In this document: piece after piece, positions 8,821-63,407 of the stretch
Numbering within the stretch: the first letter of the stretch is position 1
Layout: every line of letters starts with the position of its first letter
Source: an uncultured Gammaproteobacteria bacterium
GTDB lineage: Bacteria; Patescibacteriota; Microgenomatia; JAUYPR01
DNA length: 64,000 nucleotides
Assembly: GCA_964372495.1 (NCBI GenBank)
Contig: CAYJQU010000002.1
Coordinates: forward strand, 25,040 to 89,039
Reading direction: 5' to 3'
Notes under the pieces: model-generated
What the model was told of the DNA's origin: nothing
Seen by the model: the letters and a program-made list of their open reading frames with translations, nothing else
Databases searched by the model: none
Position numbers and translations under genes: made by a program

Positions 8821-9716
8821 CTCGATAGCGTCCACTCAAGAAGCTTGCGCGATTCGCCAAAACGATCAGCACTGCCAAGTACGACGCTTACTACGATATT
8901 TCCTTTATGGTCAAAGGCAGCCACTAAACACTCGCCGGCGCCCTCTGTCCATCCAGTTTTGACGCCAATCACACCAGGTACACTCCCCAAAAGGAGATTC
9001 TTATTGGTCAGGGTATGCCAACGCGTTTTCTCGATGTTGCTTACTACTACCTCTTTCGTAGCCACTATCCGTGCAAAGTCCGGGTGCCTCAGCGCCTGGC
9101 CGGCCAGTCGTGCCAGATCCTCGGCTGTTGTGTAATGATCCGGATGGTCAATCCCGGACGGGTTTACAAAGTGAGTATTCTGTAGATGCAACTCCGCTGC
9201 CTTCTGGTTCATGCGTTCCACAAACTGCTGAGGTGTTTCTGAACAGTTTTCAGTAAGCGCAAGCGCCGCGTCGTTGCCTGAATTAAGAAGCAGTCCAAAC
9301 AGAAGTGACTCAACCGTGATCCGCTCTCCGGAGTACAATCCCATCTGGGTACTCGTATCATCAGCATCCAGCGTCCTTACTTGCACAATCTTATCAAGCG
9401 GACACTGTTCAAGTGCTATGAGCGCTGTCATTATTTTGGTTGTTGAGGCAGGTTTTACCCGCATTTGGGCCTCATGGGCAAATAGTACGACAGCCGAGGT
9501 GACATCCACTACCGCCGCCGACCGTGCGGTAAGAGGAGGCGGTGCACTCGCTGTTGCTATCCGAGGATAGGGAACCGGGGTGGGAATCGCTATTGGCAGC
9601 TCCCGTACCAGTGTCTGATCGGTGCGCAGCGCCAACACGGAGGCTCGCTCTGTCGACCCACGGCTAAGCAGCAGCAATCCAGCAAACGCCCCCAGAGCCA
9701 GTATCCTACTTCTCAT
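8793..9716 (-). CDS. Serine-type D-Ala-D-Ala carboxypeptidase (low-molecular-weight PBP, DacA-like)
   Basis: Signal peptide plus SxxK (ASTTK), SxN (SGND) and KTG (KTGWT) motifs. Confidence 0.85.
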   Translation of the reverse strand: MRSRILALGAFAGLLLLSRGSTERASVLALRTDQTLVRELPIAIPTPVPYPRIATASAPPPLTARSAAVVDVTSAVVLFAHEAQMRVKPASTTKIMTALIALEQCPLDKIVQVRTLDADDTSTQMGLYSGERITVESLLFGLLLNSGNDAALALTENCSETPQQFVERMNQKAAELHLQNTHFVNPSGIDHPDHYTTAEDLARLAGQALRHPDFARIVATKEVVVSNIEKTRWHTLTNKNLLLGSVPGVIGVKTGWTEGAGECLVAAFDHKGNIVVSVVLGSADRFGESRKLLEWTLSSYSWEAVSS

Positions 9717-11067
9717 CTAAGCGAATGTCGACACGCTCCATATCACGGGGAAATAGCGATGCTTCTCGGATATTTTTTAATTTGAGTATTTGCATGGTGA
9801 GGCGCTCGAGTCCAAAGGAAAACCCTCCCTCTGGAGGCATCCCGTACCGAAACGCCTGTAGATACAGCTCAAATGACTTCGGATTCATGCCACGCGACTC
9901 TATAGCAGCCACTAGTTGCGCGTAATCGGTGACCCGGAGGCTGCCGCTTGCCCACTCCAGTCCTCTACAGAGAAGGTCGCAGCTTAACGAGTACTCCGGC
10001 TGCTCTGGATCGGGATGGGTGTAGAATGGCTTTTTGGCAGTAGGAAAGTGCGTAACGGTGACAAAATCAGATCCATGCTCCCGCAGACTCCACGCGCATA
10101 AATCTCGCTCGTCCTCTGGAGTTAAATCTGGCTCTTTTCGATTGTCCCGCCTGGTTTTTTGGTACAGAAGTTCCTGTGCTTGCCTGAGAGTCAGGCGTGG
10201 AATTTTCTTACCAACCACAGGAGCTGTTACCCCAAACTGGACCAGGATTTCTTTACACGCTGTATTCACTCCCTCTACCAAGTCGATTGCTGTTTGCTCA
10301 AGCTCGTCGAGCAAGTTTTCAAAATGTTCGATAAACCCAATCTCTATATCCAGTTGGGTAACCTCAGAAAGATGTCGGGTGGTCACTGAAGGCTCAGCGC
10401 GGTACGCGTGCGCAATCGTGAACACCCGCTCAAACACTCCCACCATGATCTGTTTGTATAGCTGCGGACTTTGGGCAAGATATGCTTCTTTCCCATAATA
10501 GGAAAGCTCGAAGACTTCTGCGCCTCCCTCAGTCGCGGACGCGACGATGGTAGGTACCACAATTTCCGTACAGTCTCTGCGCAACGCTGACTCTCGGAAG
10601 CTGGTAAGCAGTGCCGCTTGCAGCGCAAAAATAGGACGGACACTTGAGTGTCGCAAGCTGAGGGTGCGATAATCAAGTAGTGTAGGGAGGGTTACTTCAA
10701 GACTCTTGCCTCCGGTGTCGAAGGGTAGACTTTCTGCTTTGGCAATGAGCCGTAGCTCTTCGGCTTGCAGCTCCACCGTTCCCGTAGCTAGTTTCGGGTT
10801 TACCAATTTCTCGGGGCGCTCCTTGACCGTTCCCGCCACGAGCACAACGTCTTCGGGCCGCAGACTCCCAGCCTGCTCTCCACTCAGTACAACCTGGAGA
10901 ACCCCGGTGCGGTCACGAAGATCTACAAACACAATCTTCCCGTGGTCCCGTCGTACTTGTACCCAGCCGTATACTGCAACTTTTTTGCCCACACGCGCAA
11001 GCGTCTCCCGAGCATACATGCGTTTCACAAAGGTCATTGTACCAAAACACCCCGTATTGACAAGCAA
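9706..11067 (-). CDS. aspS: Aspartyl-tRNA synthetase, archaeal/eukaryotic-type (AspRS2; could be non-discriminating)
   Basis: Class II aaRS with an N-terminal OB fold (GWV..RDHGKIVF), a QSPQLYKQ motif and a GGFSFGLERL motif 3. Its roughly 450-aa length fits the archaeal-type AspRS/AsnRS. Confidence 0.8.
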   Translation of the reverse strand: MLVNTGCFGTMTFVKRMYARETLARVGKKVAVYGWVQVRRDHGKIVFVDLRDRTGVLQVVLSGEQAGSLRPEDVVLVAGTVKERPEKLVNPKLATGTVELQAEELRLIAKAESLPFDTGGKSLEVTLPTLLDYRTLSLRHSSVRPIFALQAALLTSFRESALRRDCTEIVVPTIVASATEGGAEVFELSYYGKEAYLAQSPQLYKQIMVGVFERVFTIAHAYRAEPSVTTRHLSEVTQLDIEIGFIEHFENLLDELEQTAIDLVEGVNTACKEILVQFGVTAPVVGKKIPRLTLRQAQELLYQKTRRDNRKEPDLTPEDERDLCAWSLREHGSDFVTVTHFPTAKKPFYTHPDPEQPEYSLSCDLLCRGLEWASGSLRVTDYAQLVAAIESRGMNPKSFELYLQAFRYGMPPEGGFSFGLERLTMQILKLKNIREASLFPRDMERVDIRLDEK

Positions 11068-57805: not shown

Positions 57806-58984
57806 TTAGGAAACAATAGTACTAACGACCCCTGCACCAACCGTATGACCGCCTTCCCGAACCGCAAACCGAAGCCCTTCATCTAGCGCCACCGGCGCGA
57901 TAAGCTTCACGGCCATCTCGGTGTTATCACCAGGCATAACCATCTCGGTACCCTCCGGCAGTGTTACCTCGCCTGTCACATCAGTGGTGCGAAGGTAAAA
58001 CTGTGGTCGATACCCAGAGAAGAAGGGGGTATGACGTCCGCCTTCCTCCTTGGCAAGTACATACACCTGTGCTTTAAACTCCGTGTGCGGCTTTATGGTA
58101 CCGGGTTTTGCAAGTACTTGGCCCCGCTCAACATCACCCTTTTCAACACCGCGCAGCAGTACTCCAACATTGTCACCTGCCTGACCCTGTTCCAGCTGCT
58201 TGCGGAACATTTCAACACCAGTGACCACTGTCGACTTGGTAGGTCGAATACCAACGATCTCTACCGTATCGTTGACCTTGACCACGCCGCGCTCGACACG
58301 GCCGGTAACCACAGTACCTCGTCCTTTGATTGAGAACACATCCTCAATCGCCATGATGAATGGCTTATCGAGGTCCCGCTGGGGCTCGGGGATATATTCA
58401 TCCACTTTAGTCATGAGTTCCTCGATCGCCTTGACAGCTTCCGCATCCCCCTCCAAAGCTTTCAATGCAGAACCGCGCACCACGGGGATATCATCACCTG
58501 GAAACTGGTACTTGGTGAGGAGCTCCCGAACTTCCATCTCAACGAGATCCAGGAGCTCTGGATCATCGACCATGTCCACTTTATTCATAAACACGACCAT
58601 AGCCGGTACCCCAACCTGCCGCGCCAGCAAGATATGCTCACGCGTCTGCGGCATGGGTCCATCGGGTGCAGACACAACCAAGATCGCCCCGTCCATCTGG
58701 GCTGCACCGGTAATCATGTTTTTGATGTAATCAGCGTGTCCTGGCGCGTCGATGTGTGCATAGTGACGCTTGGCTGTTTCATACTCAACGTGGGTAATGT
58801 TGATCGTGATCCCACGCGCCTTCTCTTCCGGAGCATTATCAATTTGGTCATACGCTTTAAACTCGGCCTGACCCTTTTGGGACAGCACTTTTGTGATCGC
58901 TGCCGTTAACGTAGTCTTGCCATGGTCGACGTGACCAATGGTTCCGATGTTAACGTGCGGTTTAGTTCGTTGAAATACTGCCAT
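57806..58984 (-). CDS. tuf: Elongation factor Tu
   Basis: [17 protein letters not shown] and NKVD G-motifs. Confidence 0.95.
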
Positions 58985-59012: not shown

Positions 59013-61103
59013 TTATGTGCCTTTTGCTTTCGCAATAATAGCTTCTGCAATGTTTGCTGGCACCTCTTGGTAATGGGAAGGCTCCATATAGTAACCTGCC
59101 CTCCCTTGGGTCATACTCCTCAACTCTGTTGCATATCCAGGTAACTCCGCCAGCGGTCCTTCTGACATAATAACCACGGCATTCGCCCGCTTCTCGGTAC
59201 CCAAAATCTGGGCTCGCTTGCTTGATAAATTACCGATCACTTCACCCATAAACTCTTCAGGAGTCGTCACTTCAAGTTTCATGATCGGTTCCAAAAGTAC
59301 CGGTTCGGCGTGCCGCGTGGCCTGCTCAAGTGCCATAGACCCGGCGATTTTAAACGCAATCTCCGACGAATCCACCTCGTGATACGTACCATCATACACC
59401 ACAACTTTCATATCCACGAGTGGATACCCCGCTACAACCCCTGCCTCCATCCGCTCCCTGACACCTTTCTCTATGGCCGGGATAAACTCCCGCGGAATTG
59501 CTCCGCCGACCACTTCTGACACCCACTGGTAGCCTTCACCCCGGGCACGTGGCTCAACCCGGAGGAAACAATGCCCATACTGCCCCCGTCCGCCAGATTG
59601 ACGAATATATTTCCCCTCACCTATGGCTGCGTGCTTGATCGTTTCTTTGTACGCCACCTGCGGCTTCCCCACATTTGCACCAACGCGGAATTCGCTCCTT
59701 AAACGGTCAACGAGCACCTCAAGCTGTAGTTCTCCCATACCTGAAATAATGGTCTGTCCTGTCTCGTGGTCAATCTTTACCCGAAACGTGGGATCTTCCT
59801 CAGAAAGTCTACCAAGCGCATAGCCCATCTTCTCCTGGTCAGCTTTTGTCTTTGGCTCTATGGCAAGCGATATTACCGGATCAGAGAATGTAATACCTTC
59901 CAACACAATAGGTGCTTGTTCAGAAGCCAAGGTATCTCCGGTACCGGTCTTTTCCAATCCAATAACTGCCACGATCTCGCCTGCAAACGCCTCGGGTACT
60001 TCCTCGCGCTGATTGGCGTGCATAAGGACCACACGACCTACTCGCTCCTTCTCGCCCTTAGTTGCGTTGAGCACATATGACCCACTTTTTAAGGTACCAG
60101 AATAGATCCGCACATAGGTTAACTTTCCCACATGCGGATCCACTTGAATTTTAAACGCCAAGCCTGAAAATGGCGCCGACGGATCGGCTTTGCGTATTTC
60201 CTGGACCTGACTTTTTGGATTGTATCCAGAGACTTCAGGAATGTCAAGCGGGGACGGCAAAAAGTCTACGATAGCGTCCAGTAATGGCTGCACTGCCTTG
60301 TTGCGTAGACTTGAGCCAGCCAGCACTGGCACAATCTTATACTCAATCACCGCTCGCCGGAGTGCGACCTTCAGTTCGTCGACTGTAAGTTCCTGGCCAT
60401 TTAAGTACTTCTCAAGGATTGTATCATCGGTCTCAGCTATTTTTTCGACCAGCACGCGGCGAGCCTGCGTACACTGCTCACGTACATCCTCTGGAATTTC
60501 TTCCTTCCGGTATGTGGCACCGGTCTCATCTCCCTCCCAAATCAGCGCTGCCATGGTCAGCAGGTCCGCTACACCCCGGAAGGTCTGTTCCTTCCCTATG
60601 GGAATATTGTACGGTACTGCGTTGGCGCCCAGACGGTCTCGCACCGTTTGCACTGTGTGCTCAAAATCAGCGCCCAGCTTATCCATCTTATTGACAAAGC
60701 AGATGCGGGGAACCTTATACTTATCAGCTTGACGCCATACGGTTTCCGACTGGGACTGCACTCCCTCCTCTGCATCCAGCACAGTCACTCCACCATCCAA
60801 CACGCGCAGCGACCGCTCAACCTCTGCCGTAAAGTCCACATGACCCGGCGTGTCAATAAGGTTCAATCGAACATCTTTCCAGAAAGTTGTCGTCGCGGCA
60901 GACACGATCGTAATCCCCCGGGCCCGCTCTTGCTCCATCCAGTCAGTGACGGTCGTTCCTTCGTCGATATCGCCTAACTTATAGGTCCGGCCAGTGTAAA
61001 ACAGGATACGTTCAGTCGTAGTAGTTTTGCCCGCGTCAATATGCGCAATGATGCCAAAATTGCGAATCTTATCTAGAGGATATAAACGCGATGGAATCAC
61101 CAT
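59013..61103 (-). CDS. fusA: Elongation factor G
   Basis: AHIDAGKTT and DTPGHVDF G-domain and EF-G domains II-V. Confidence 0.95.
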
Positions 61104-61118
61104 AATCGTATTTTACGG

Positions 61119-61150
61119 CAAAGAAAAAAGCTTCCTCAATTGGAAGCTTT
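61119..61150 (-). terminator. Rho-independent terminator (AAAGCUUCC-AAUUGA-GGAAGCUUU then UUUUUCUUU), ending 16 nt upstream of the fusA AUG
   Basis: Read on the minus strand: a perfect 9-bp stem, a 6-nt loop and a U-tract. Confidence 0.6.
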
Positions 61151-61225
61151 CCGTGGGAATTCCACTTCTTTCTTCGCCTGATAGGTATTGTAACCTACGG
61201 GCTATCAGATGTCAAAAGCAATGGA

Positions 61226-62404
61226 CTAGGAGCATGCAAGTGAATCAGATACACACCGATCTGGGTCGGCAATATACACCCACCAATTGGGCACTTTCTT
61301 CCCATCAGTACCCATCAAGGTATTCCCAGCTCCAGGCATATTCTGCATCCACCATTGTAAATATCCATCTGTGGTACATTTCCATGCCGTGCAGTTAAGA
61401 TTTTCTTTTTGCCCTGATCTATCCGGCTTCCAGTTCCTGCAGTCGCTTTGAAAGTACGCCGTATTGATTCTGTCATATTCGGCGCTGGCATTTGGAGGGT
61501 TATGGGCATTCCCACATGACGTGCCCCTCCCCCATGACCTCTGATTTTGCGATTCATTTTCCCCCGACCAGCTCGACCACTCCGGTCGAAATCGTCTGAA
61601 AACTGCTTCCAAGTGATGGCTATACGACTCAAGTGCTTCGGCGAGGCCCCTGGTATAATTTAAGCCGTAGACTACTATTGTCTTATCGGGACAATACGGA
61701 AGCTGAGCACCATTTGTCGGTATTCCCCCGGAACCGGTAATCGCAGATTCCCACATACCGCCTGCGTACTCCCCTAGTCCATCTGCCCATAGAATGACAG
61801 CTTTTATATCTTTCTGTTTTGCCACATTACACAGATCGTACTTGCTAAATAATGCCCCGTAGTCGTATTTTCCTGATATTGTTGGCGGTGGGTTGTTCTC
61901 TGTTTTTATATCTTCGCTGCTTAGTGTGTACCGGAGGGATGCCTGAGCGTTCGCATTTGAGTAGCCGTGGTATCTACTAGCTTCATTCAGCGCAGGGAGT
62001 AAGGTGTTCTTCGTATATGCGGCCGGGTCACCTATTTCGGTGACGTACGTTGTGTTTGGATAATAGGCAAGCATCCACACTTTCACCTCGCGAGTTACTC
62101 CTGTGGGCGCAGGTGTTTGTTGGGGTGAAGGAATGGGACTGACCACAGAGGCTGGAGTAGAGCGTGGAATCGGGATTGGTGTTGGAGAGGGACGGACTGG
62201 TACATTTGTAGGAGAAGCACTTGGAATCGGAGTTGGACTCGGCACGGGAGTTGGATTAGATAGTGGCGACGCTGAGGGAGCGGGATTCGGCGAGGATGTT
62301 TGAGGTTGGGAATTTCTCTTGGTAAGAGAAAATGTTATCCCTGCTACTAGCGCAACTGCCAAGATAGCCACTAGGACCCAGAATTGCGAAATCCCACGCT
62401 GCAT
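61226..62404 (-). CDS. Hypothetical membrane-anchored, Cys-rich extracellular protein inserted in the str operon
   Basis: N-terminal transmembrane helix (FWVLVAILAVALVAGITF), a PSPTP-rich linker, a roughly 280-aa globular domain and at least 8 Cys in the C-terminal 90 aa. No recognised domain. Confidence 0.55.
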   Translation of the reverse strand: MQRGISQFWVLVAILAVALVAGITFSLTKRNSQPQTSSPNPAPSASPLSNPTPVPSPTPIPSASPTNVPVRPSPTPIPIPRSTPASVVSPIPSPQQTPAPTGVTREVKVWMLAYYPNTTYVTEIGDPAAYTKNTLLPALNEASRYHGYSNANAQASLRYTLSSEDIKTENNPPPTISGKYDYGALFSKYDLCNVAKQKDIKAVILWADGLGEYAGGMWESAITGSGGIPTNGAQLPYCPDKTIVVYGLNYTRGLAEALESYSHHLEAVFRRFRPEWSSWSGENESQNQRSWGRGTSCGNAHNPPNASAEYDRINTAYFQSDCRNWKPDRSGQKENLNCTAWKCTTDGYLQWWMQNMPGAGNTLMGTDGKKVPNWWVYIADPDRCVSDSLACS

Positions 62405-62485
62405 ATACCTATCCTCACGGAAGTGGCAAACCATGTCAATAGCTCTTATCCGCTTAAATGATTTAAATGAACAGAATTAGGAAAT

Positions 62486-62965
62486 TTACCACCTGAAGTG
62501 AGCAAATGCGCGGTTGGCTTCAGCCATTCGGTGAGTGTCGTCCTTTTTCTTGATCGCGGCGCCAGTGCTTGCCGCCGCATCAATAAACTCTTGCGCAAGT
62601 TTCTGGCCCATCGTCTTGTACTCCTTATTCGGTCGCGCGGCAGCAGCCTTTATGAGCCAGCGGATTGCGAGCGCCTCCCGGCGATCCCCCCGAACCTCCA
62701 TTGGCACCTGATACGAAGCACCGCCGACTCGCCGAGGCCGTACTTCCATCCGCGGGGACACATTACGGATCGCTGTTTCAAACACAGGCAGGGGGTTACT
62801 CTCCTGCTTTTGTTCTATGCGCTTGAGCGCATCATAAAAAACTTTTTGCGCCACGGTCTTTTTTCCATCATGCATGAGCCGGTTTATAAACCGCGTCACC
62901 AGCGGACTCTCGTAGACTGGATCGGGAGTTAATGCTCGCTTGACGACAGTACGGGATCGTGCCAT
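62486..62965 (-). CDS. rpsG: 30S ribosomal protein S7
   Basis: MARSRTVVKRALTPDPVY matches the S7 N-terminus. Confidence 0.9.
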   Translation of the reverse strand: MARSRTVVKRALTPDPVYESPLVTRFINRLMHDGKKTVAQKVFYDALKRIEQKQESNPLPVFETAIRNVSPRMEVRPRRVGGASYQVPMEVRGDRREALAIRWLIKAAAARPNKEYKTMGQKLAQEFIDAAASTGAAIKKKDDTHRMAEANRAFAHFRW

Positions 62966-62972
62966 AGGATAT

Positions 62973-63407
62973 TTAAGAAGCGCGAGCGGCTTGGGGGCCT
63001 GTACTGCGCTTGGTGCCATATAAACTTCTCCCCTGCCGGCGTCCTTTGACTCCAGAAGCATCGAGTTTCCCGCGCACAATGTGATACTTTACTCCTGGTA
63101 AATCCTTCACCCTGCCACCTCGAACCAACACAATACTGTGCTCGGCAAGCTCATGGCCGATACCTGGGATATACGCGGTGATCTCCTGCCTATTTGAAAG
63201 GCGTACGCGGGCAACTTTACGCAAGGCCGAGTTTGGTTTCCTCGGCGTCATTGTCTTTACTATCGTACACACGCCCCTTTTCTGCGGCGCAGGAGCCGTG
63301 CTGACTACACGAGCACGCGCATTAAACAGTTTGCGCAATGCGGTCGCCCGCACTTTCTTTGGTTTCGTGTCTCTTCCTTTTCGAATCAGTTGATTAATAG
63401 TTGGCAT
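62973..63407 (-). CDS. rpsL: 30S ribosomal protein S12
   Basis: [12 protein letters not shown]...PNSALRK matches S12. Confidence 0.9.

What the first reader, a model, noticed from the sequence alone, without database searches (positions are those of the whole stretch)
61226..62434. Non-ribosomal gene inserted between rpsG and fusA in the otherwise universal str operon
A roughly 390-aa protein with an N-terminal transmembrane anchor, a PSPTP-rich linker and a Cys-rich globular domain (at least 8 Cys in the last 90 aa, likely disulfide-bonded and extracytoplasmic) interrupts rpsL-rpsG-fusA-tuf. It is followed by its own terminator. Insertions at this position are rare because the operon is under strong selection. 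No family is recognised.
Basis: partly seen in the sequence, partly recalled or inferred. Interest (0 to 1): 0.55.

Follow-up and report, generated by a model that had tools for sequence, protein, structure and literature searches.

The report
Surface-protein gene splitting the str operon
A real gene for a membrane-anchored, disulfide-rich surface protein of an unnamed but widespread family sits between rpsG and fusA in this candidate-phyla-radiation (CPR) bacterium; that junction is often broken in its relatives, so the placement is a local curiosity and the uncharacterised protein family is the more interesting part.

Summary
The ORF is real. It runs 61226-62404 on the minus strand (392 aa from the Shine-Dalgarno-preceded ATG; 402 aa from the first ATG) and lies between rpsG and fusA. 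The same arrangement is recovered from two further sequencing runs of the same population, so it is not a chimera. The protein has one N-terminal hydrophobic anchor, an 80-aa Pro/Ser/Thr linker and a 285-aa globular domain with 8 Cys (only 5 in the last 90 aa, not at least 8).

None of 87 other family loci lies in a str operon, so the placement is lineage-specific. In CPR relatives, however, the rpsG-fusA junction is often filled with unrelated cargo. The supposed "own terminator" follows a promoter-like site, and the same layout precedes fusA in a relative that lacks the gene, so it is more likely a fusA leader.

Best reading: a secreted or anchored metal-dependent hydrolase-like protein parked at a permissive transcription-unit boundary.

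The parts
61226..62404 (-). CDS of the inserted gene ('X'): 392 aa plus stop
   Evidence: ORF. ATG at 62404 with GAGGA 7 nt upstream. Identical 392-aa database entry P0001.
62405..62434 (-). In-frame upstream extension to the first ATG (10 codons), probably not translated
   Evidence: No Shine-Dalgarno sequence upstream. Homologs begin at the hydrophobic segment. One gene caller chose this 402-aa form (P0169).
62412..62416 (-). Shine-Dalgarno-like GAGGA for X
   Evidence: Read directly from the sequence.
62324..62383 (-). N-terminal hydrophobic segment (residues ~8-27): signal anchor or signal peptide
   Evidence: Kyte-Doolittle 19-residue window of 2.55; the next best window in the protein is 0.66.
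62081..62320 (-). Pro/Ser/Thr-rich linker (residues 29-108)
   Evidence: 30% P, 17% S, 11% T. Length and sequence vary between homologs.
61229..62080 (-). Conserved globular domain (residues 109-392) of an unnamed family, with 8 Cys
   Evidence: 27 homologs and 2,724 representatives. AlphaFold2 model pLDDT 87.5, pTM 0.89. Conservation.
61607..61630 (-). Helix motif E259-S-x-x-H263-x-x-E266, a candidate metal or catalytic site
   Evidence: H263 and E266 are 99% conserved. Position 259 is E in 76% and H in 23% of 169 domains. The motif lies in model helix 149-168.
61490..61516 (-). Motif C297-G-x-x-H301-x-P-P-N305
   Evidence: C, G, H, P and N are 98-100% conserved across 169 domains.
61187..61215 (-). 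Promoter-like TTGACA-17-TACAAT starting 10 nt after the X stop codon; probable fusA-tuf promoter
   Evidence: 11 of 12 consensus matches. An equivalent element lies 93-113 nt upstream of fusA in L011, L026 and L031.
61120..61151 (-). 10-bp hairpin plus U-tract, ending about 15 nt before the fusA ATG
   Evidence: -13.6 kcal/mol, z = -2.7. The whole intergenic region folds with z = -3.7. Hairpins in the same position, with unrelated sequences, occur in L011, L026 and L031.
62486..62965 (-). rpsG (S7), upstream neighbour; 81 nt separate its stop from the X start
   Evidence: PF00177 on the identical Logan contig.
62973..63407 (-). rpsL (S12)
   Evidence: PF00164.
59013..61103 (-). fusA (EF-G), downstream neighbour
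   Evidence: EF-G Pfam domains.
57806..58984 (-). tuf (EF-Tu)

Best explanation
X is a functional gene for a cell-surface protein of a CPR (Patescibacteria, Microgenomates-type) bacterium. It has an N-terminal membrane anchor or signal peptide, a Pro/Ser/Thr-rich spacer and an extracytoplasmic domain. That domain is probably held by four disulfides (inferred pairs 192-238, 297-322, 338-343, 384-391).

The domain belongs to a large, unnamed family. Its alpha/beta fold resembles zincin/metzincin catalytic domains only distantly. Its invariant residues ([E/H]259, H263, E266, H301, N305, plus E219, N231, R252, Q354) most likely form a metal-dependent hydrolytic site. That site probably acts on an extracellular or envelope polymer such as a glycoprotein, glycan or cell wall.

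The gene landed in its own lineage only, in the spacer between rpsG and a pre-existing fusA promoter and leader. In this part of the CPR that spot is a boundary between two transcription units (rpsL-rpsG and fusA-tuf), not a tightly coupled junction, so it tolerates cargo. Because there is no promoter or terminator between rpsG and X, X is probably co-transcribed with rpsL-rpsG.

SHOWN: gene reality, domain conservation, family size, lineage-specific placement, and recurrent breakage of the junction in relatives. INFERRED: extracytoplasmic location, disulfides, metal site, hydrolase activity, co-transcription, and the fusA leader role of the hairpin.
For: GENE REALITY AND FUNCTION. X carries every invariant family residue. 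The identical arrangement appears in independent assemblies.

SURFACE LOCATION. There is a single N-terminal hydrophobic segment and a PST linker. The Cys residues occur in co-varying pairs: six are about 98% conserved, and the last two are present or absent together. Homologs are fused to Dockerin_1, CBM2, Big_7, PA14, Lectin_C, fn3, TIG and TSP3 modules.

METAL SITE. The E/H alternation four residues before the invariant His is typical of a metal ligand.

PLACEMENT. 0 of 87 other family loci are in a str operon. No X homolog occurs in 80 related str operons. No remnant of X is found in the spacers of relatives. 9 of 14 CPR-titled loci have a broken rpsG-fusA junction carrying different cargo. 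The promoter-hairpin-fusA layout is shared with L011, which lacks X, and with L026 and L031.
Confidence: 0.55

Rival explanations
1. The domain is not an enzyme but a binding or adhesion module, for example for attachment to a host cell or a polymer. On this reading the conserved His and Glu residues hold a structural metal or make up a ligand-binding site.
For: The domain is fused to adhesion-type modules (Ig-like Big_7, fn3, TIG, PA14, C-type lectin, TSP3). It has many invariant aromatic residues (W325, W341, W375, Y310). There is no canonical catalytic motif, and the structural matches are weak.
Against: The set of invariant polar residues (E219, N231, R252, H263, E266, H301, N305, Q354, D382) is kept across 169 domains that are only 25-35% identical overall. 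That pattern is more typical of a catalytic centre. Dockerin and CBM fusions are typical of enzymes.
Confidence: 0.25
2. The placement is adaptive and not merely tolerated. On this reading X was selected at this site to ride the strong, growth-rate-coupled str promoter, making it an abundant constitutive surface protein.
For: There are only 81 nt between rpsG and X, with no promoter-like or terminator-like site on that strand. X has a good Shine-Dalgarno sequence.
Against: The relatives' junctions carry unrelated cargo with no common theme (PHP, DNA glycosylase, flavodoxin-like, radical SAM). That fits a permissive site better than a selected one. No other family member uses a ribosomal operon. 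There are no expression data.
Confidence: 0.15
3. The arrangement is an assembly chimera, or X is a decaying pseudogene.
For: The source is a metagenome-assembled contig. Composition is mildly atypical.
Against: The same junctions on both sides of X are recovered in assemblies of two other sequencing runs. The ORF is intact, with all invariant residues and all Cys pairs.
Confidence: 0.03

Closest known systems
Metzincin/adamalysin-type zinc metalloprotease catalytic domains (ADAM17/TACE, atrolysin C, ulilysin, mirolysin) and bacterial glycoproteases CpaA and OgpA
   Different: X has no HExxH or HExxHxxGxxH motif; the helix reads [E/H]SxxHxxE. There is no sequence-profile match to any peptidase family. 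TM-scores are only about 0.3. The second conserved His sits in a CGxxHxPPN loop that has no metzincin counterpart I know of.
[quoted passage not shown]
   Same: Foreign, unrelated cargo is found within the otherwise conserved block of transcription and translation genes.
   Different: There the insertions separate whole operons. Here a single gene lies inside the classical str operon, between rpsG and fusA, in a CPR bacterium.
Predicted attenuators and structured RNAs upstream of fusA (streptococci, Pelagibacter) (PMC2965389, section 'The rpsL-leader')
   Same: A terminator-like hairpin sits between rpsG and fusA, directly in front of fusA.
   Different: There is no sequence similarity and Rfam gives no hit. 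Here a sigma-70-like promoter precedes the hairpin, and the evidence rests on four loci only.
CPR relatives with a broken rpsG-fusA junction (WWE3 L012: PHP-domain gene; Gottesmanbacteria-type L019/L022/L023/L026/L028/L031/L032/L034: HhH-GPD glycosylase plus cargo)
   Same: The same junction, in the same broad lineage, is occupied by non-ribosomal genes on the same strand.
   Different: The cargo is different in every clade. None of these loci carries an X homolog.

Membership tests
Zincin/metzincin metallopeptidases | HExxH (in metzincins HExxHxxGxxH) zinc-binding motif on the active-site helix | tested here: not met
   The conserved helix reads A-E-A-L-E259-S-Y-S-H263-H-L-E266. Across 169 domains the pattern is [E/H]-S-x-x-H-x-x-E, with Ser, not Glu, after the first ligand position.
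Zincin/metzincin metallopeptidases | Catalytic-domain fold (five-stranded sheet, active-site helix, C-terminal subdomain) | tested here: inconclusive
Zincin/metzincin metallopeptidases | Sequence-profile match to a peptidase family | tested here: not met
   No Pfam or NCBIfam hit for X or for any of 22 family members even at E<=10. No PDB sequence hit with the family profile.
Zincin/metzincin metallopeptidases | Met-turn beneath the metal site; bound zinc | not testable with these tools
Classical str operon (rpsL-rpsG-fusA-tuf as one unit) | rpsG immediately followed by fusA | tested here: not met
   1,382 nt, including X, separate the rpsG stop from the fusA start. In 64 of 80 related loci the gap is at most 222 nt.
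Classical str operon (rpsL-rpsG-fusA-tuf as one unit) | Gene order and strand rpsL, rpsG, fusA, tuf conserved | tested here: met
   All four genes are in order on the minus strand, preceded by the end of rpoC.
Intrinsic terminator belonging to X | GC-containing hairpin followed by a U-tract | tested here: met
   10-bp stem, -13.6 kcal/mol, followed by UUUCUUU. The tool's own terminator scan did not list it.
Intrinsic terminator belonging to X | Located directly after the stop codon and specific to the inserted gene | tested here: not met
   It starts about 75 nt after the stop, downstream of a promoter-like site. The same promoter-hairpin layout precedes fusA in L011, which lacks X, and in L026 and L031.
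Mobile element or integrated island | Flanking direct or inverted repeats, an integrase or transposase, or a tRNA target | tested here: not met
   Only chance-level 11-20 nt repeats. The insert is a single gene. There is no PHROG or PADLOC hit.
Recently transferred foreign gene | Clearly deviant composition or codon usage | tested here: inconclusive
   Codon-preference score is -0.035 against 0.030 +/- 0.036 for 30 window genes. GC3 is 0.46 against 0.53 +/- 0.06. Trinucleotide distance is in the top 7.6% of tiles.
Sec-exported or membrane-anchored extracytoplasmic protein | N-terminal hydrophobic segment | tested here: met
   Residues 8-27, Kyte-Doolittle 19-residue mean 2.55. Homologs have the same feature.
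Sec-exported or membrane-anchored extracytoplasmic protein | Signal-peptidase cleavage site and orientation | not tested
   No signal-peptide predictor was available. The flanking charges are ambiguous.

The most novel reading that the evidence does not exclude
The domain founds a previously undescribed family of extracellular metallohydrolases. It would have a zincin-like fold with a non-canonical [E/H]SxxHxxE + CGxxHxPPN metal site and three conserved disulfides. The family would be used widely (more than 2,700 sequence clusters) on the surfaces of CPR bacteria and at least one DPANN (Woesearchaeota) archaeon, often on giant multi-domain proteins, for attacking or remodelling host or environmental polymers. 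In this genome it would have been wired to the ribosomal str promoter.
Probability: 0.25. Interest if true: 0.6.

Novelty: new variant of a known kind. Interest (0 to 1): 0.35.

Why it matters
The operon interruption teaches a modest lesson. The rpsG-fusA link, treated as near-universal (PMC3150367), is loose in Microgenomates-type CPR bacteria. There fusA appears to have its own promoter and leader, and the junction collects unrelated cargo. This matters for synteny-based annotation and for the use of this block as a phylogenetic marker.

The protein is the more useful lead. It is a confident, compact, disulfide-rich domain with an invariant His/Glu/His constellation, found in thousands of clusters and on giant surface proteins of ultrasmall episymbionts, yet it is absent from every curated family library searched here. 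If it is a hydrolase, it is a candidate tool for host-surface interaction in organisms whose biology is largely unknown.

Tried and rejected
- **Curated family libraries.** Pfam, NCBIfam, PHROGs and PADLOC gave nothing for the globular domain. The only hits (TonB, GltJ, CwsA) fall on the low-complexity linker or the hydrophobic segment and are far below their cutoffs.
- **PDB sequences.** A family-profile search returned only noise-level antibody hits.
- **Structure libraries.** The AFDB Foldseek library was unavailable. The viral structure library gave no significant match.
- **Mobile element.** No flanking repeats were found.
- **Functional pairing with Wzy_C.** The two closest homologs sit next to a Wzy_C (O-antigen-ligase-like) gene, but this pairing is seen in only 4 of 89 family loci and not in the window.
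- **Loss in relatives.** No remnant of X is detectable in the rpsG-fusA spacers of L009, L011 or L013.
- **Independent strain.** L168 turned out to be the same population. All its differences cluster in the last ~95 nt of the contig.
- **Known RNA families.** Rfam gave only a sub-threshold ctRNA hit on the hairpin.
- **Paralogs.** There are none in the window.
- **Literature.** Searches for this family, or for str-operon insertions in the CPR, found nothing specific.

Full report
1. WHAT IS IN THE SEQUENCE

An uninterrupted ORF lies at 61226..62434 on the minus strand (402 aa). Upstream on the same strand are the end of rpoC, rpsL (62973..63407) and rpsG (62486..62965). Downstream are fusA (59013..61103) and tuf (57806..58984).

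The second in-frame ATG, at 62404, has a GAGGA 7 nt upstream. It gives a 392-aa product identical to a database entry held by NCBI and Logan (P0001). I take 61226..62404 as the gene, called X below.

X is not an assembly artefact. A Logan contig from run ERR3478686 carries rpoC'-rpsL-rpsG-X-fusA-tuf at 100% identity. A contig from run ERR4904391 carries X-fusA and is identical except for the last ~95 nt at its end. These represent the same population, not a second lineage.

2. ANATOMY OF THE PROTEIN

- Residues 8-27 form the only strongly hydrophobic segment (Kyte-Doolittle 2.55; the next best window is 0.66).
- Residues 29-108 are 30% Pro, 17% Ser and 11% Thr.
- Residues 109-392 form a conserved globular domain.

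The protein has exactly 8 Cys, at 192, 238, 297, 322, 338, 343, 384 and 391.

Across 169 family domains, six Cys are about 98% conserved. The last two occur together in only about 11% of members. This fits sequential disulfide pairs (inference).

3. THE FAMILY

No Pfam, NCBIfam, PHROG or PADLOC model and no PDB sequence matches the domain. The word-indexed search found 27 relatives, and the few that carry a name are from Patescibacteria.

The exhaustive profile search found 2,724 representative clusters at E<=1e-3, of which 1,041 are at E<=1e-30. Many are proteins of 500-4,600 aa. One is a 4,654-aa Woesearchaeota protein.

Other members carry Dockerin_1, CBM2, Big_7, PA14, C-type lectin, fn3, TIG and TSP3 modules. 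This is the repertoire of secreted enzymes and adhesins.

Residues that are invariant or nearly so (numbering of the 392-aa protein) are E219, N231, R252, S260, H263, E266, C297, G298, H301, P303, P304, N305, Y310, W325, W341, Q354, P357, W375 and D382. Position 259 is Glu in 76% and His in 23% of members.

4. FOLD

An AlphaFold2 model built on the 22-sequence family alignment is confident (pLDDT 87.5, pTM 0.89).

The order of secondary-structure elements is strands and helices followed by a long helix (model residues 149-168) that carries E259, H263 and E266. This is what a zincin N-terminal subdomain with its active-site helix looks like (inference). The i/i+4 spacing of [E/H]259 and H263 mimics the two His of HExxH.

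The canonical motif is absent, so I do not file X as a zincin. I say only that it most likely works like a secreted metal-dependent hydrolase.

5. THE PLACEMENT

None of the 8 homolog contexts looked up by exact protein sequence is in a str operon. These homologs are 35-71% identical to X. Their settings are a type IV pilus cluster, positions next to two-component kinases, next to uvrC, next to a Wzy_C gene, and near a penicillin-binding protein.

None of the 79 metagenome loci is in a str operon either. In total, 0 of 87 non-self loci have a str-operon neighbour, and 39 family loci (two of them copies of the window's own locus) have at least 1.5 kb on both sides.

Conversely, none of 80 str operons from species-representative genomes contains an X homolog. 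The spacers of the nearest relatives hold no remnant of X. The placement is therefore specific to this lineage.

Its age cannot be set, because the closest available genome has only 72% S7 identity. Codon usage is mildly atypical:
- codon-preference score 1.8 SD below the window's genes;
- GC3 0.46 against 0.53 +/- 0.06;
- trinucleotide distance in the top 8% of tiles.

No flanking repeats were found. There is thus neither a clear foreign signature nor a mobile-element scar.

6. HOW UNUSUAL IS AN INTERRUPTION HERE?

In general it is unusual. In 64 of 80 loci fusA follows rpsG within 222 nt, with a median of 82 nt. [quoted passage not shown]

Among the 14 loci whose titles name a Patescibacteria/CPR lineage, however, 9 are interrupted:
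- WWE3 (L012) has a PHP-domain gene.
- Gottesmanbacteria-type loci have an HhH-GPD glycosylase as the first or second ORF after rpsG, ahead of variable cargo, with fusA at least 4 kb away or not within 5 kb.
- L015 has a radical-SAM gene on the opposite strand.

Three loci labelled 'uncultured Gammaproteobacteria' (L019, L022, L023) show the same glycosylase arrangement and are probably mislabelled CPR genomes. In this organism's neighbourhood the junction is therefore a recurrent landing site.

7. THE 'OWN TERMINATOR'

Ten nucleotides after the X stop codon lies TTGACA-17-TACAAT (61215..61187, 11 of 12 consensus matches). About 35 nt further on is a 10-bp hairpin with a U-tract (61151..61120, -13.6 kcal/mol). 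It ends about 15 nt before the fusA ATG.

L011 is the closest relative by EF-G (76%) and EF-Tu (86%) and has no X. It has TTGACA-18-TACAAT 110 nt before fusA, followed by a GC-rich hairpin and a T-run. L026 and L031, where fusA is detached, show the same layout with unrelated hairpin sequences. Loci where fusA abuts rpsG lack it.

The hairpin is therefore better read as part of a fusA leader or attenuator, or as a unit boundary, that predates X. Predicted attenuators between rpsG and fusA have precedent (PMC2965389).

This suggests a mechanism for tolerance. Where fusA-tuf has its own promoter, DNA inserted between rpsG and that promoter does not uncouple anything essential. X sits exactly in that slot. 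It has no promoter-like or terminator-like site between rpsG and itself, so it is probably co-transcribed with rpsL-rpsG.

All of these transcription statements are inferences from consensus matches at four loci. An equally good promoter-like match lies inside fusA.

8. VERDICT

What remains of interest is the protein. It belongs to a large, unnamed family of Cys-stabilised surface domains with a distant zincin-like fold and a non-canonical His/Glu/His constellation. I rate interest at 0.35. I class it as a new variant of a known kind: a secreted metallohydrolase-like domain, and cargo at an operon boundary.

Noticed in passing
window 61120-61215 (-); L011 5759-5845; L026 ~9930-10000; L031 ~9390-9465: The four loci share the same layout upstream of a detached fusA. 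A -35/-10-like pair lies 93-113 nt before the ATG, followed by a hairpin with a U-tract ending 20-35 nt before the ATG. The hairpin sequences are unrelated. In the window and in L011 an outer helix pairs with the U-tract. This may be a fusA leader or attenuator specific to Microgenomates-type CPR bacteria.
   Followed up: partly
L019, L022, L023, L026, L028, L031, L032, L034 (first or second ORF after rpsG): In Gottesmanbacteria-type genomes an HhH-GPD (AlkA-like) DNA glycosylase gene of about 200 aa follows rpsG, directly or as the second ORF, in place of fusA, ahead of variable cargo. This is a clade-level break of the str operon. L012 (WWE3) has a PHP-domain gene there that overlaps the fusA start by about 37 nt.
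   Followed up: partly
L013, L014, L019, L022, L023, L029, L035 (record titles): MAGs titled 'uncultured Gammaproteobacteria' or 'Pseudomonadales' have S12, S7 and EF-G most similar to CPR genomes. L019, L022 and L023 also share the Gottesmanbacteria-type gene order. They are probably mislabelled.
   Followed up: no
window 60219-60247 (-), inside fusA: A second 11-of-12 promoter-like match (TTGACA-17-TACAAT) lies within the fusA coding region, about 1.2 kb upstream of tuf. It could be an internal tuf promoter or a chance match. It also shows that such matches are not rare here.
   Followed up: no
window 62973-63407 (-), rpsL: S12 is 144 aa and has a C-terminal extension ending ...[19 protein letters not shown]. 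Several CPR relatives align over the full 144 residues, whereas most other bacteria align only to about residue 134.
   Followed up: no
L005 1838-3061; L006 1917-3089: The two closest homologs of X (71% and 67% identity) are each followed immediately by a Wzy_C (O-antigen-ligase/polymerase-like) membrane protein gene. The pairing is restricted to this subclade (4 of 89 loci), and no such gene is in the window.
   Followed up: yes
L001 (P0004 context): A 59%-identical homolog with an added Laminin_G_3-like N-terminal part sits inside a type IV pilus gene cluster (T2SSE, T2SSF, prepilin peptidase, several N_methyl pilins). This hints at a link to pilus-associated surface functions in some members.
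   Followed up: no
L168 positions ~2640-2742 (window 59733-59823): All differences between the ERR4904391 contig and the window are packed into the last ~95 nt of the contig, inside fusA. This is probably a strain-variant path or a contig-end artefact, not real divergence.
   Followed up: yes
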